NCBI GenBank assembly: GCA_964016885.1
Contig: OZ024748.1
Location: forward strand, 27,466,001 to 27,530,000
DNA from: Eledone cirrhosa
Taxonomy: Eukaryota
DNA: 64,000 nt
Reading direction: 5' to 3'
A program made the position numbers and the translations under genes. Positions 5,482 to 31,091 of this stretch are shown here, one piece after another. The notes under the pieces are model-generated. The model was not told the origin of the DNA. It saw only the letters and a list, made by a program, of their open reading frames with translations, and did not search any database. Within the stretch, counting starts at the first letter, position 1. Every line of letters starts with the position of its first letter.

Positions 5482-5668
5482 CGTAGGTCCCGGGTTGAGT
5501 CGGGGATAACCACAGTAAGTAAGGTACTCAATACATGGCAGAGTAAATTTTTTTTTTATTTTATAGAAGGAGCTTCTACAGGACTAGTACTGTTTCATTC
5601 AGATGAAATCTTCAGATTTCATCTGAATGAAACAGTACTAGTCCTGTAGAAGCTCCTTCTATAAAATA
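5482..5668 (-). mobile_element. Fold-back mini-element family A (Penelope-like pLTR remnant) with a hammerhead core, between (TA)n tracts
   Basis: Perfect 55-bp inverted arms at 5557-5611 and 5614-5668. The minus strand reads CTGAAGA-TTTC-ATCT-GAAT-GAAAC-AGTACTA-GTC. Homologous to 21862-22033 and 30912-31091. Confidence 0.75.
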
Positions 5669-5699
5669 TATATATATATATATATATATATATATATAT

Positions 5700-5918
5700 G
5701 AATAAAATTAGTCCTTCATCAGTGATCTTCCAGCCTTCCTTGGTATTTCATCGCTTTAAAGACCATATACCTCTGGTTGGTGCGAGCAACGGCTAAAGAA
5801 AGTCGTTGGGACACGTAAATAGGGGGAACGAGCGAGACATGTAAACAAACAAAGATGGTAATGCAACGAAAATTGAGGAAGAAGGAGTCAAGTCCCTGAA
5901 ATCGATGAACATTTTCAT
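5700..5918 (-). mobile_element. Possible Penelope-like fragment between (TA)n tracts with a truncated hammerhead start
   Basis: The minus strand reads CTGATGA-AGGAC and then runs into (TA)n. The GAAA half is absent. Confidence 0.35.
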
Positions 5919-5980
5919 ATATATATATATATATATATATATGTGTGTGTGTGTGTGTGTGTGTGTGTGTGTGTGTGTAT

Positions 5981-6012
5981 ACTAGCTGAGCTACCCGGTG
6001 ATTCCTGGGTAT
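5981..6012 (-). mobile_element. Helitron-type 3' terminus
   Basis: The minus strand reads CCCAGG-AATCA-CCGGG (GC hairpin), then ~8 nt, then CTAG|T, which is the canonical Helitron 3' end layout. Confidence 0.55.
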
Positions 6013-7044
6013 TTTATTAAAATAACAATATATTTGGCACATATTACAAAATATTTGACCAATGAAATATGATTGCTGAATTTTAACTAAAGTAGGAATT
6101 ATACCCGAATATTTATTGCCGTCTGTTCAAAGCAAATTATGTAGATAAAAATATTATTAGTTTTTTTCCACTTGCGAGTTTTTGAATACTGCTCCCTATT
6201 ATAGTCAGCATATATATAATGCTTCACACCTGGAAGAATCATTAGGTATGTTGCCAGTGAAAAGGGCATGACCAAAAAATTACATTTAGATTTGCTTATT
6301 AATTTTTTTTTTTTTTGCACAATCAGAACCTCTGGAATTCAAACAACATGTAAAGGCTATCTTGAAAACCATAAATAAAATTTAAAAAAAAAATTAGCAT
6401 TGGTTTATGAATGAATGAAGCATTTACTTACTCATTTCTGTAATTCAGGAAAATTTATCTAAATGTGTGTAAGTGCGGTAGATAAACATATACACCAGGA
6501 ACCAAACTCCCACTGTCACTGCTTCCATCTCTTCGGATCTCCCCATCACTCACTATCATGAGTAAATGAAGGACCACGCAAGCCATTCGGGATTGCGAGT
6601 CTCACCCCTCGGATAGCCAACAATGTGCTGATGGTGGTGAGTTGGGAGGTGGTCCTAGGGCCAAAGTGCGGCAGAGCCCAGGTTAATTAAAATTTTTACA
6701 CTGTAGCTTTCACCAACTTTTGCCTCTATGGCAGTAGGATCTTGTTTGAGAGAGATTTATTTTCTATTTCTTTTAGGTACACCAACAGTTATAGTGGCTT
6801 CCACGGCGTACATACATACGACATACACACACTGTGTGTGTGTGTGTAAGACTGTTGGTTGTGATTTGAAATGGATTTTGCTAATGTTTCTAGTAGATCG
6901 AGGTGTCATATACAACCTTTCCTTTGGCTTCATACATATATACATACATGAGACAGTAGACTGAGATTTTAAAGAAATGTGACTGCTAGTTCTAACAGGT
7001 CTAGCTAGCTACCATAACAAGATCTCACTTATAATACTTTATAT

Positions 7045-27410: not shown

Positions 27411-28749
27411 TTAAGACGGCAAGAGTTGCCGACAGTCCTCCTTCACTTAATGGTTAAAAGTGCCTAGCCGGTATCTGAGTGGTATGGGGCTCGATTCCTA
27501 ATAGCGGCCGATGGTAACTTTTTCTCCGTCTTTTAAACGTTTCTTCGCCCAATTTTAAAAGCTATTTTATAGCATCTCTGCGCATGACTACATCATTCTT
27601 TATAATATAGATAGATAGATATAGATATATACAATTATACAAACACACACGAATGTGTGTCTCATCAAATAGCAAGAAGAAGTGTGTTTACATGGATGTC
27701 AGTGTATTGGCAGGGAGCTGATTCAAGAATGTTCAGTGTGTATGTATGTATGAATATATACGTATATATATATATATATATATATATGTGTGTTGTGTGT
27801 GTGTGTGTGTGTGTGTGTGTGTGTGTGTGTGTGTACGGCATATATACATATATTTGCGTGTGGGTCTAGTGTTTCACCTATTCCTAAATTAGGTTTAGTA
27901 CTTTATGTTGAAGAAGAAGAAGAAGAAGAAGAAGAAGAAGAAGAAGAAGAAGAAGAAGAAGAAGAAGAAGAAGAAGAAAAGATGATGAAACAAAAAAAGA
28001 AGACGGATTGCAGGAACAGCAGTAGCAGCAGTAGCAGCAGCAGCAGCAGCAACAACAACAACAACAACGACAATAACAATGACAACAACGATGTCAAAAA
28101 GGGAAATAAATCAAGACGAAGAATAGGAATAAGGTAGAAAATGAAAACAGTGGAGGAGGGGTGAGAAAGGGGAGGGGAAAGGTGAAGACAGAACTGACGA
28201 GGAAGGAGGGAGAAGAGTTGGAGACAGAGGATGTATGTACATGAGGAGGATGAGGTGTAGGCGGGAGATGAGAAAGTTTTAGATTATTTATTTCTTATTT
28301 GCTTTATATGGGACCATGAGAGAGAGCGTGGAGAAAGAAAGAGAGAGAGAGGCAAAAGGGAGTGATGCCAAGAGAACCTATAATATATGCCAAGTAAAAG
28401 AGATGCAAGGAGCAATGCCAAGAGCGATGCAAGAGAAAGCTACAGATAAGTGCAGCATCGTGTAAAGAGTAATGGCTGCAGATAAAAATGGCCGCATAGC
28501 ATGTCGAAACATAAACCCACAACGCACGACTAGTGTTACTGTTGTTATTTTCCTCCCTTAACAACATTATCAAAATATCGAATTATCATCTTATACCAAA
28601 CGGCCTTTCTTTTCTTTTCTTCTCTTTTTCTTTTCTTTTCTTTTTTTCTTTCTTTATTATCATTACAGAGAAAAGAACGCCGTTGGAATTCCTCTTTCGC
28701 TTCGGATTTGTCATCCGGGCACTTGTCGTCGGCGGGAAAGGAAGCGCCA

Positions 28750-29552
28750 TGTTATTTAGACAAACAACGATTATATTTAATAAGAGGTCGCTGTGATTTA
28801 TCTTATATTAATGAATCTCTTTTTGCTTCTCGCCGAAAGATGGCGTTTGTTTGCTTAACTTTCTCTACTGTGGCCGACCGACATTATAGCTGTTCACTTG
28901 TTCGCTTGTTCTCTGTTAAGTTTGCGCAGTACGTTGGCCATTTTTCATTTTAGAAAAACTGAATATCTTCGGACTAGCTTAGAACATTCACTTTAATTGA
29001 TCAAGATATGATAGATTTCCTTCTTCGTTATAGCTTTCCTCCATTTTTTTCTCTCTGTCTCTTCTATTACCTTTCTTTTCCCAATTGTCCATTATTCTTG
29101 TTCCTTGTATTTGTCTTTCTTTCTCAATACCAAATTATTCCTTATATATACATATATGGAAAATCTTTGCTACATCTTTCTTTCATTTTGTGTGTATATA
29201 TATATATATATATATATATATATATACACACAAAATGAAAGAAAGATATATATATATAAAGAAATATATATATATATATATATATATATATATATATATA
29301 TATATATATATATATATATATATACAAAATGAAAGAAAGTTGTAGCGAATATTTTCAGTTTTTCTAAAATGAAAAATGACCAACGTACTAATCAAACTTA
29401 ACAGTGATCAGGCGAACGTCTATAATGTCGGTCGGCCATAGTAGAAAAATCTAAGCAAACATCTTTCGACGAGAAGCAAAAATAGATTCATTAATATAAG
29501 ATAAGTCACAACGACCGCTTATTAAAATATAATCGTTGTTTGCCTAAATATT
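28750..29552. repeat. Diverged ~220-bp inverted repeat pair around a (TA)n-centred palindrome
   Basis: 28750-28972 matches the reverse complement of 29345-29552. The inner palindrome is ATCTTTCTTTCATTTTGTGTG-(TA)n-CACACAAAATGAAAGAAAGAT (29174-29247). Confidence 0.8.
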
Positions 29553-30504
29553 GTTTTCTCTTTCCAACAAAAACCAGGGATCCTAGGAAACAAGTTGTGA
29601 ACTCCATCAGCAAATAGAATTTAGGAAATCTAGCAAATTTTGATAAGTTATACCGTAGTATGATGTCGCCACTGACGTTTCGAGCAAATATCTTCTTCGG
29701 AAAAATTCTTTGCAATCTTCGCTGGAAATACGAATGTATAAGTTCGACTTGGGGGAAATCTGTTTGTAAGGATTATTGGAATTGACGGTTAATCATCAAT
29801 CTATTTGTTCGATTTTTAAAATTTACGTTTGCATTGATTGTTGAAAATGACAGTTGTTAAGCATTGATATATTAGTTCGATTTTCTCTTGCATTGTTCGC
29901 TTCAAATGGCAATTGAATATTGATCTTTTTGTTCAACCTTCGGCAAATTTTCTTGCACTGATCGCTGGAAAAGTCTGTTGAACAACAGTTTTGTTTGTTC
30001 AATAGACGTTGAGACGATCATTCAAAATGACTGTATCAGCAATTACTTATTTGTTACTGTCAGTTGATGAGACTATTCAACTGTCATTTTCTATTATAGA
30101 TCGACATTATGTTCAAATGTGTCCACCTGTCAATTTCTATTATTGATACTCAGTGAGGCCAACTATGTCCATTTGTCAATTGTTATAATATGTATACTTA
30201 GCATTTACGTCTCCGGGGAGACTTTACCTGATTTGTCAACTATCATTATAGCTATCTGCATTGTGGTGACAACATTCTCAAATTTCAAATTTCCCAATAT
30301 TTCTTATGTCGAGCATACACACACACACATATACATGCACACACACACACACACACACACACACACACACACACACACACACACACACACACACACACAC
30401 ACACACACACACACACACACACACATATATATATATATATATGTATATATATATATATATATATATATATATATATATATATATATATATATATATATGA
30501 ATAT

Positions 30505-30885
30505 ATAGTATAAAGAAAGGAAAAATCAGTGATGCATCTGGACTCAGTTTATTGCGTGTTACAAATGTTTCGCCGGCAGGTAGCTCGAGACATGATCACT
30601 GTATGGATCTGGCTGATTCTACGGCTGCAGGTTCCTTCGGACACATGCAATTCTTTCGGAGCAAATTTTCTCACTGGGGAACCTGCAGCCGTAGAATCAT
30701 CCAGATCCATACAGTGATCATGTCTCGAGCTACCTGCCGGCGAAACATTTGTAACACGCAATAAAATGAGTCCAGATGCATCACTGATTTTTCGTTTTTT
30801 TATACTATTCACACCCTGCTCTGTAATAATATTGAGTGCTAATTTTGGCATACCGCCTATGGAAGCACCATAGCTACCATTATAC
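30505..30885 (+). mobile_element. Fold-back mini-element family D
   Basis: 131-bp arms at 30505-30635 and 30678-30808 with ~4 mismatches and a 42-nt loop. Contains the hammerhead-like 3' half GCCGGC-GAAAC-ATTT-GTA. TA flanks. Confidence 0.7.
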
Positions 30886-30911
30886 ACACGTATATATGAA
30901 TATATATATAT

Positions 30912-31091
30912 AAGTTATTCCGGGTTGAATCGGAGGTAACCACAGTAAGTAAGAGGTACTCAATACATAGCAGAGTATAAATGTTTTAATATAGAAGAGC
31001 TTCTACGGGACTAGAACTGTTTCATTCGTGGGAAATCGCCAGGGCTTCCTGGCGATTTCTCACGAATGAAACAGTTTCTCACGAATGAAAC
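30912..31091 (-). mobile_element. Fold-back mini-element family A, copy 3
   Basis: 29-bp arms at 31015-31043 and 31048-31076. Reads CTGGCGA-TTTC-CCAC-GAAT-GAAAC-AGTTCTA-GTC. A 15-nt terminal re-duplication follows. TA flanks. Confidence 0.75.

What the first reader, a model, noticed from the sequence alone, without database searches (positions are those of the whole stretch)
5482..31091. Hammerhead-bearing head-to-head fold-back mini-elements from at least four unrelated families, all at (TA)n tracts
Seen: short (130-520 bp) non-coding inserts bounded by TA repeats. Family A is at 5482-5668, 21862-22033 and 30912-31091; B at 10005-10524; C at 23727-23921 and 24012-24146; D at 30505-30885. Each has one long and one short segment in inverted orientation. 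The hammerhead (CUGANGA..GAAAC..GUH, complete or 3' half) lies towards the centre and the downstream tails point outward into (TA)n. Established: Penelope-like element pLTRs carry minimal type I hammerheads with palindromic stem III, and PLE insertions often have an inverted 5' segment. Inference: these are ORF-less products of PLE machinery. Because (TA)n is self-complementary, both target strands could prime cDNA from an RNA 3' end (twin priming), with the two cDNAs then joined near the ribozyme. This would amount to a microsatellite-targeting, ribozyme-carrying system that deposits long dsRNA-forming hairpins.
Basis: partly seen in the sequence, partly recalled or inferred. Interest (0 to 1): 0.75.

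Follow-up and report, generated by a model that had tools for sequence, protein, structure and literature searches.

The report
Fold-back stubs of Penelope retrotransposons
These small mirror-image DNA pieces in TA repeats are cut-short, head-to-head ends of several related Penelope-like jumping genes, a known layout, and both halves tend to stop at one spot that is likely the start of the element's RNA, which would show how these genes begin copying themselves.

Summary
The fold-backs are real, but they are not a separate ORF-less system. A, C and F have at least 12,900-15,600 copies each. For A the same head-to-head layout spans 130 bp to about 8 kb. (TA)3 follows 131 of 149 tail ends (background 9-10%). 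Raw reads show A and C fold-back joints. Hammerheads, (TA)n targets, an inverted 5' copy and a one-sided tail are all published for this clade, and this scan has found the same kind before, in this and other genomes. That position is an initiator-like motif, not the ribozyme cut site, often with an extra G as from cap copying. Pairs carry one tail, and the tail-less arm often reaches further, which excludes simple snap-back for those pairs. Likely mechanism: both ends of a (TA)n cut prime at two internal RNA sites and run off the capped 5' end. No RNA data were available.

The parts
5484..5665 (.). Family A fold-back stub. Tail arm on - (5484-5615, element -39..+91 from the GUA cleavage site); short arm on + (5614-5665, from -35). 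Hammerhead lacks the 5' strand of stem I.
10217..10524 (.). Family B fold-back stub. Tail arm on -, short arm on +; (TA)n only at the short-arm end.
10449..10498 (+). Complete predicted type I hammerhead of B (8-nt core, palindromic stem III, GUA site after 10493)
10309..10357 (-). Second complete predicted hammerhead of B on the other arm
10168..10216 (-). Fragment of a B-family PLE ORF directly beyond the B tail end
   Evidence: 84% over 49 nt to the ORF in L141
21862..22033 (.). Family A fold-back stub. Short arm on - (-38..+22), tail arm on + (-28..+90); hammerhead incomplete.
23728..23921 (.). Family C fold-back stub. Tail arm on - (-38..+97), short arm on + (-40..+20); 3' half of the hammerhead only.
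24013..24144 (.). Family C inverted pair without overlap. Short arm on - (-58..+20), tail piece on + (+40..+97).
30505..30888 (.). Family D fold-back stub. Short arm on - (-120..+55) with a low-confidence complete hammerhead; tail arm on + (-76..+135).
30912..31091 (.). Family A fold-back stub. Tail arm on - (-41..+90); short arm on + (-44..-11) cut early with a small duplication; core mutated.
48593..48750 (.). Tail arm on - (-20..+116), short arm on + (-29..+29).
22704..24323 (.). (TA)n tract holding both C copies. Other flanking (TA)n tracts: 5397-5481, 5666-5699, 22033-22058, 30425-30512, 31093-31125, 48373-48593.

Best explanation
The stubs are 5'-truncated, head-to-head ends of several Hydra-clade Penelope-like retrotransposons set in (TA)n, and each likely forms when both ends of one DNA cut prime copying of the element's RNA and both copies stop at what is likely the RNA's capped 5' end. 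Shown: link to RT + GIY-YIG ORFs, (TA)n flanks, two fixed outer ends (about +20 and +90 nt after the predicted cleavage site in A and C), one tail per pair, and a shared inner stop. Inferred: the endonuclease cuts (TA)n on both strands. One end primes at the distal start and gives the tail arm; the other primes at the proximal start and gives the short arm, probably helped by 2-6 nt of TA pairing. On an uncleaved transcript that begins in the pseudo-LTR, both cDNAs run off the 5' end, like strong-stop DNA, and are joined by short microhomology or added bases. Longer copies need a template that continues past that point: read-through RNA, a ribozyme-cut circle, or a jump to the 3' repeat. Odds: about 0.93 for Hydra-type PLE stubs, 0.8 for two RNA-templated cDNAs, 0.6 for the transcript-start stop.
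For: ORF link. A: L168 tail runs into an ORF with RWR, DKT, CxCX5C, YIG, CxxC and CxH; EN pieces lie between head-to-head A ends in L031 and in 6 of the 13 stretches. C: L170, L171, L172. B: L141. D: L137. F: L257, L256. (TA)3 within 14 nt of the tail end in 57/69 A, 47/50 C, 27/30 D, and of the short-arm end in 38/43, 29/35, 10/11; background 8.6-9.9%. Inner ends within an 11-nt window: A 58/86, C 44/70, D 5/22, F 8/28. In long copies that window holds a YYAG initiator-like motif (A -45, C -41, D -116, F -46/-40). A TATA-like box lies about 30 nt upstream in 11/11 long A and 6/6 long C copies. Long and short arms differ in length yet stop at the same place. The base before the initiator A, where not templated, is G in 17 of 26 (p 0.0008 against 1/3), and in 10 of 14 after hand removal of ambiguous cases (p 0.004); one C copy in L083 has G on both arms. 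Tail on one arm: 0 of 78 tail-anchored A and C fold-backs had two tails; 13 of 14 short-arm-anchored pairs had a full tail partner and none was tail-less; 11 of 12 long pairs had one tail. Raw reads of three other samples show (TA)n after +24 and +91 (A) and +20 (C), and opposite-strand joints near the inner stop.
Against: No RNA shows a transcription start. The initiator pattern was chosen after seeing A, C and D. The pre-stated test on F was only partly met: initiator present, no TATA box, weaker mode (8/28), and 2 arms stopped at -218 without such a motif. In A and F the stop is also the 5' edge of the hammerhead, so only C and D separate the two readings. A, C and F all stop 41-46 nt before the cleavage site. 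D has no TATA box and most of its arms stop elsewhere. B was too diverged to score. The extra-G count is small and partly hand-sorted, and arms starting one base later in A also had G in 5 of 10. The C read-depth step is confounded by an AATT site where many reads end. In vitro, the anole PLE used the same starts on both strands and a start not homologous to the target (PMC11167929), which does not by itself predict one tail per pair. Samples are the first hits on one contig, anchored on exact motifs, so they lean to young copies.
Confidence: 0.68

Rival explanations
1. Same PLE stubs, but the inner stop is set by the hammerhead: the folded or protein-bound ribozyme stalls the RT, or its stems supply the microhomology for joining.
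For: The A and F stops fall at the 5' strand of stem I. A, C and F stop at a similar distance from the cleavage site. 29 of 43 A junctions overlap by 1-12 nt, and some use stem I complementarity (L011).
Against: C stops inside loop II and D about 25 nt upstream of stem I. 14 of 43 A junctions are blunt or have added bases. The extra G is not explained. Only 7 of 178 arms end at the cleavage site.
Confidence: 0.17
2. Snap-back: one cDNA (or an antisense template) folds on itself and is copied back, as proposed for rotifer PLE palindromes (PMC3846280).
For: Both arms carry the same variable loop II in 20 of 22 A pairs, against 0.22 expected for random pairs. Arm extents correlate (D rho 0.94, A 0.39).
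Against: A snap-back copy of the tail-arm cDNA cannot reach further 5' than its template, yet the tail-less arm does so in 19/43 A, 24/35 C, 11/11 D and 10/14 F pairs. Some pairs do not overlap at all (window 24013-24144; L247, L249, L250, L257, L260).
Confidence: 0.08
3. The hairpins are self-propagating non-autonomous mini-elements that are transcribed and reinserted as hairpins.
For: Very high copy number. A few copies share a junction (L029/L190, L020/L192).
Against: Junction coordinates and inserts differ from copy to copy. The same layout continues up to about 8 kb with ORFs inside. There is no polarised G-T excess in the 7 window copies or in 71 sampled pairs (60 G-T against 50 A-C).
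Confidence: 0.05
4. Assembly or library artefact at TA tracts.
For: Palindromes and microsatellites are hard to assemble.
Against: Opposite-strand joints and both TA-flanked ends appear in raw reads of three other samples. Fixed asymmetric ends and mismatches between arms are not expected of chimeras.
Confidence: 0.01

Closest known systems
Hydra clade of C-terminal EN+ Penelope-like elements (Craig et al. 2021, PMC8557442; e.g. Hydra-1_Obim, Penelope-13_HM)
   Same: DKT, RW(K/R), CxCX5C, CxxC and CxH motifs; C-terminal GIY-YIG; canonical hammerhead (family A core ctgatgat..tgaa as in their File S2); (TA)n insertion; inverted 5'-truncated copy; tail on one end.
   Different: Tails are about 65-90 nt rather than 30-40. 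A and D carry a kilobase-scale TA/TG-rich 3' UTR. There are tens of thousands of minimal stubs. The sharp shared stop and the extra G were not seen in the passages and supplement part read.
Poseidon_Ac (PAc) in vitro mechanism (Frangieh et al. 2024, PMC11167929)
   Same: Both target strands cut and extended; two internal RT starts flanking the tail; uncleaved RNA is the main template.
   Different: Different clade. There is no strand bias of starts in vitro, whereas pairs here carry one tail. Starts here have short TA pairing to the target.
Adineta Penelope inverted pLTRs (Arkhipova et al. 2013, PMC3846280) and D. virilis Penelope promoter (Schostak et al. 2008, PMC2377424)
   Same: Head-to-head palindromes, optional tail, TATA and Inr-like motifs in the pLTR; the transcript starts in the upstream pLTR.
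   Different: Palindromes were read as self-priming on an antisense template. Arm extents here argue for two RNA-templated cDNAs.
L1 twin priming (Ostertag and Kazazian 2001; seen only as a reference listing, mechanism recalled)
   Same: Both target strands prime and an inverted 5' piece results; non-overlapping pairs occur here too.
   Different: L1 primes at the poly(A) 3' end and its arms do not overlap. Here both starts are internal and most arms overlap.
Metazoan non-LTR retrozymes (bioRxiv 10.64898/2026.07.22.740005, part 1 of 5 read)
   Same: Type I hammerhead and PLE origin; a ten-unit 1.09-kb tandem array of family A exists (L102-L103).
   Different: The window stubs are single inverted pairs, not tandem monomers, and most lack a complete hammerhead.

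Membership tests
Hydra-clade PLE | Single ORF with RT and C-terminal GIY-YIG | tested here: met
   A: L098, L103, L168; C: L170, L171; B: L141; F: L244, L257. The Pfam GIY-YIG hit is weak, E 0.005, below cut-off. For D only the N-terminal and RT part was seen (L137).
Hydra-clade PLE | RWK motif and DKT in place of DKG | tested here: met
   RWR in A, F and D; DKT in A and F. The region was not available for B and C.
Hydra-clade PLE | CxCX5C linker; CxxC and CxH in EN; no CCHH | tested here: met
   All three motifs in A and C; B degenerate, CxxC only. Absence of CCHH was judged by eye.
Hydra-clade PLE | Canonical hammerhead in the pLTR | tested here: met
   A: 83% of cells paired against 34-49% for slid controls; 3 stem I pairs change on both sides; shuffles reached the covariation score in 24 of 500, so support is modest. 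C has a U3-A8 core, a variant described in PMC4209133. B and D have an 8-nt core. Cleavage was not tested.
Hydra-clade PLE | (TA)n insertion preference | tested here: met
   131 of 149 tail ends against about 9-10% background; the master tail continues into non-TA sequence in A.
Hydra-clade PLE | Generally under 3 kb | tested here: not met
   The A ORF spans about 2.1 kb, but its 3' UTR adds 2-3 kb of TA/TG repeat. The paper states this as a tendency, not a rule.
Hydra-clade PLE | Placement in an RT tree with published Hydra elements; no IFD | not tested
   No published Hydra protein was available as a tool-given sequence.
Non-LTR retrozyme | Tandem units each with a complete hammerhead | tested here: not met
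   The window stubs are single inverted pairs; 5 of the 7 listed have no complete hammerhead.
Non-LTR retrozyme | Circular RNA accumulation | not testable with these tools
   No RNA holder listed.
L1-type twin priming product | Priming at the RNA 3' end with non-overlapping inverted pieces | tested here: not met
   The tail continues into the ORF in masters, and most arms overlap.

The most novel reading that the evidence does not exclude
Penelope-like elements make paired strong-stop DNAs. One complex primes both ends of the cut at two fixed internal sites near the capped 5' end of the RNA, one site per end. The stubs are the products that failed to pass the cap, and full copies need a strand transfer or a ribozyme-made circle. 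Stub junctions would then map PLE transcription starts from DNA alone.
Probability: 0.5. Interest if true: 0.65.

Novelty: new member of a known kind. Interest (0 to 1): 0.42.

Why it matters
Craig et al. 2021 name the formation of tandem and inverted structures and the microsatellite bias as unexplained features of PLE transposition. Tens of thousands of minimal stubs record where both cDNAs start and stop. If the stop is the capped 5' end, it gives a testable replication scheme between LINE-type priming and LTR-type strand transfer, and a role for the hammerhead at the very start of the RNA. As a system the finding is ordinary: known clade, known layout.

Tried and rejected
Rfam at gathering score found nothing. 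A DNA search of the genome with the A tail found nothing because common words are skipped; pattern searches replaced it. No RNA holder was listed, which says nothing about expression. Free MFE folds did not give the hammerhead for A, D or one C copy; those structures rest on motif, pairing counts and the published Hydra pattern. B inner ends could not be scored because subfamilies diverge upstream. The first alignment had wrong coordinates and was redone; A2 includes truncated arms and one misplaced row. Rows dropped: L026 (second hit in the L025 locus) from A counts; L147, L150, L153 and L157 from B. Fold-backs were scored only if a partner arm lay within 700-800 bp, so long pairs count as 'no partner' (26/69 A, 15/50 C, 19/30 D, 16/30 F, 16/30 short-arm-anchored A). 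No ADAR-type polarity was found in window copies or sampled pairs. Long pairs were selected for having two long arms, so they were not used for arm-length correlation. Paper searches showed no paper on PLE arms ending at a transcription start. The library lacks most subscription papers; I read only part 2 of 59 of the Craig supplement plus one term search, and bioRxiv supplements are closed.
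Full report
Setting. The window lies in a 3.0-Gb genome, G000:C8:27466001-27530000, rich in microsatellites. Other notes of the scan call it octopus-type; I did not test this. 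Element positions below count from the predicted hammerhead cleavage site.

Observation. All seven inserts exist, with the corrections listed under the observation check. B is shorter than stated and abuts a B ORF fragment rather than (TA)n at its tail. One C copy has non-overlapping pieces. Only B (both arms) and D (one arm, low confidence) keep a complete predicted hammerhead. A fifth family, F, sits at 48593-48750.

Copy numbers. Exact-pattern hits in G000: A tail 15,616, C tail 12,919, F tail 15,614, D tail 489, B hammerhead 469, A short-arm end flush with TA 3,469, and an A motif about 500 nt further upstream 767. Reversed controls gave 0 in each. I examined 70 A, 50 C, 30 D, 30 B and 30 F loci plus 30 short-arm-anchored A loci, all first hits on contig C1.

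Link to autonomous elements. Long A copies come as head-to-head pairs about 4-8 kb wide. L031 and 6 of the 13 stretches fetched hold GIY-YIG ORF pieces between the ends. In L168 the tail continues into a 5' UTR and an ORF with RWR, DKT, CxCX5C, YIG, CxxC and CxH. C, B, D and F are joined to related ORFs in L170-L172, L141, L137 and L256/L257, at 29-56% identity to A or C. These motifs, (TA)n targets and canonical hammerheads define the Hydra clade (PMC8557442 section 11). Its supplement lists an octopus member and a family with an inverted 5'-truncated copy, and hammerhead cores like that of A. The inverted copy and one-sided tail are drawn as typical for PLEs. Opposite-strand hammerhead pairs and the U3-A8 core are in PMC4209133 (passages).

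Target. (TA)3 follows 57/69 A, 47/50 C and 27/30 D tail ends and 38/43, 29/35 and 10/11 short-arm ends, against 8.6-9.9% of random positions. Because the A master continues into other sequence, the tract is target and not element.

Outer ends. Tail arms end near +90 (A), +97 (C), +137 (D) and +116 (F); short arms end near +20, +20, +55 and +29. Raw RAD-seq reads of three samples show TA after +24 and +91 in A and after +20 in C, and opposite-strand joints. This fits the two internal starts and two-strand extension shown in vitro for the anole element (PMC11167929, parts 1-2 of 4). Pairs carry one tail: 0 of 78 tail-anchored A and C fold-backs had two; 13 of 14 short-arm-anchored pairs had a full tail partner and the last a partial one; 11 of 12 long pairs had one, the exception holding a nested different PLE.

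Two cDNAs rather than snap-back. PMC3846280 (passages) reads the palindromes as self-priming. A back-copy of the tail-arm cDNA cannot reach further 5' than that arm, but the tail-less arm does in 19/43 A, 24/35 C, 11/11 D and 10/14 F pairs, and some pairs do not overlap. The arms share the variable loop II in 20 of 22 A pairs, so both come from one RNA or one source locus.

Inner ends. 58 of 86 A arms end at -49..-39, 44 of 70 C arms at -44..-34, 5 of 22 D arms at -119..-109 and 8 of 28 F arms at -49..-39. Only 7 of 178 A, C and D arms end at the cleavage site. Long copies have a YYAG motif at -45 (A, 10/11 copies), -41 (C, 5/6), -116 (D, 7/10; 2 more at shifted coordinates) and -46/-40 (F). 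A TATA-like box lies about 30 nt upstream in A and C but not in D or F. The initiator consensus and spacing are recalled. TATA and Inr-like motifs in pLTRs and a start in the upstream pLTR are published. Of 50 arms starting at the initiator A, 26 had an untemplated base before it, 17 of them G; 10 of 14 after removing ambiguous cases by hand. An untemplated 5' G is linked to cap copying in L1 (PMC9341517, passages). The F test was stated in advance and only partly met. In A and F the stop is also the 5' edge of the hammerhead. In raw reads A depth rises about tenfold between bins 852-870 and 890-927 of L168, away from AATT sites but partly through subfamily divergence; the C step is confounded by an AATT site.

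Function of the hairpins. From either strand the antisense arm is transcribed first, and in B both hammerheads lie inside the predicted stem. No editing polarity was found, and no RNA run was listed. I find no support for a host function; the stubs read as by-products.

Earlier notes of the scan reached the same classification in this and other genomes. One, in another genome, proposed that the ribozyme lies at the start of a capped RNA. These are unchecked AI notes seen after my own analysis, and are not counted as support.

Verdict. Real; new families of a known clade in a known layout. The mechanistic reading (two internal starts, one per target end, both stopping at the transcript start) is likely but unproven. 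Interest 0.42.

Noticed in passing
window 48593-48750; L234-L263: Fifth fold-back family F, 15,614 exact tail hits, Hydra-type ORF, hammerhead core with A at position 4; many pairs barely overlap, as from one RNA.
   Followed up: yes
window 21982, 24089, 30830, 23783(-), 5533(-), 30965(-), 2929(-): A 10-nt motif TATTGAGT(A/G)C is shared by the tails of A, C, D and another family, 52-61 nt before the tail end in A, C and D; a candidate RT or endonuclease recognition site. Absent in that form from B and F.
   Followed up: partly
window 2875-2990, - strand: Tail-like piece with the shared motif whose end abuts a (TAG)n tract rather than (TA)n.
   Followed up: no
L102-L103 (G000:C1:83681500-83699000): Ten tandem 1.09-kb units of the A 3' UTR, hammerhead and tail, followed by an ORF-bearing copy and an inverted end; fits rolling-circle copying or repeated jumps.
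   Followed up: partly
L031, L098, L103, L118, L136: Families A and D carry kilobase-scale TA/TG-rich 3' UTRs, so they spread microsatellite and build their own targets; stubs of different families often nest together.
   Followed up: partly
L066, L067, L075, L077, L079, L228: Family C hammerhead has a U3-A8 core and a long stem II whose loop holds the putative promoter, so the 5' copy on a transcript would have only the 3' half.
   Followed up: partly
L168:871-948 in raw reads: Joints that go back 74-77 nt in all three read runs, a possible short tandem of the hammerhead region.
   Followed up: no
L095:1726-4632, - strand: A different long PLE ORF with a CxxxxCxxC linker and CCHH-like residues (Neptune-like, by recall) nested between two A ends.
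   Followed up: no
window 22659-22850, 8197-8389, 28753-29550, 17260-17774, 26147-27607: Inverted repeats of another geometry; the first three have a microsatellite at the centre rather than outside.
   Followed up: no
window 14138-14187: Perfect 50-bp palindrome beside an (AT)n tract, with relatives in L052 and L112.
   Followed up: no
window 42596-43375; 57025-58761; 62397-62888: A 69-bp tandem repeat at 99% identity, and fragments that look like LINE ORFs by recall.
   Followed up: no
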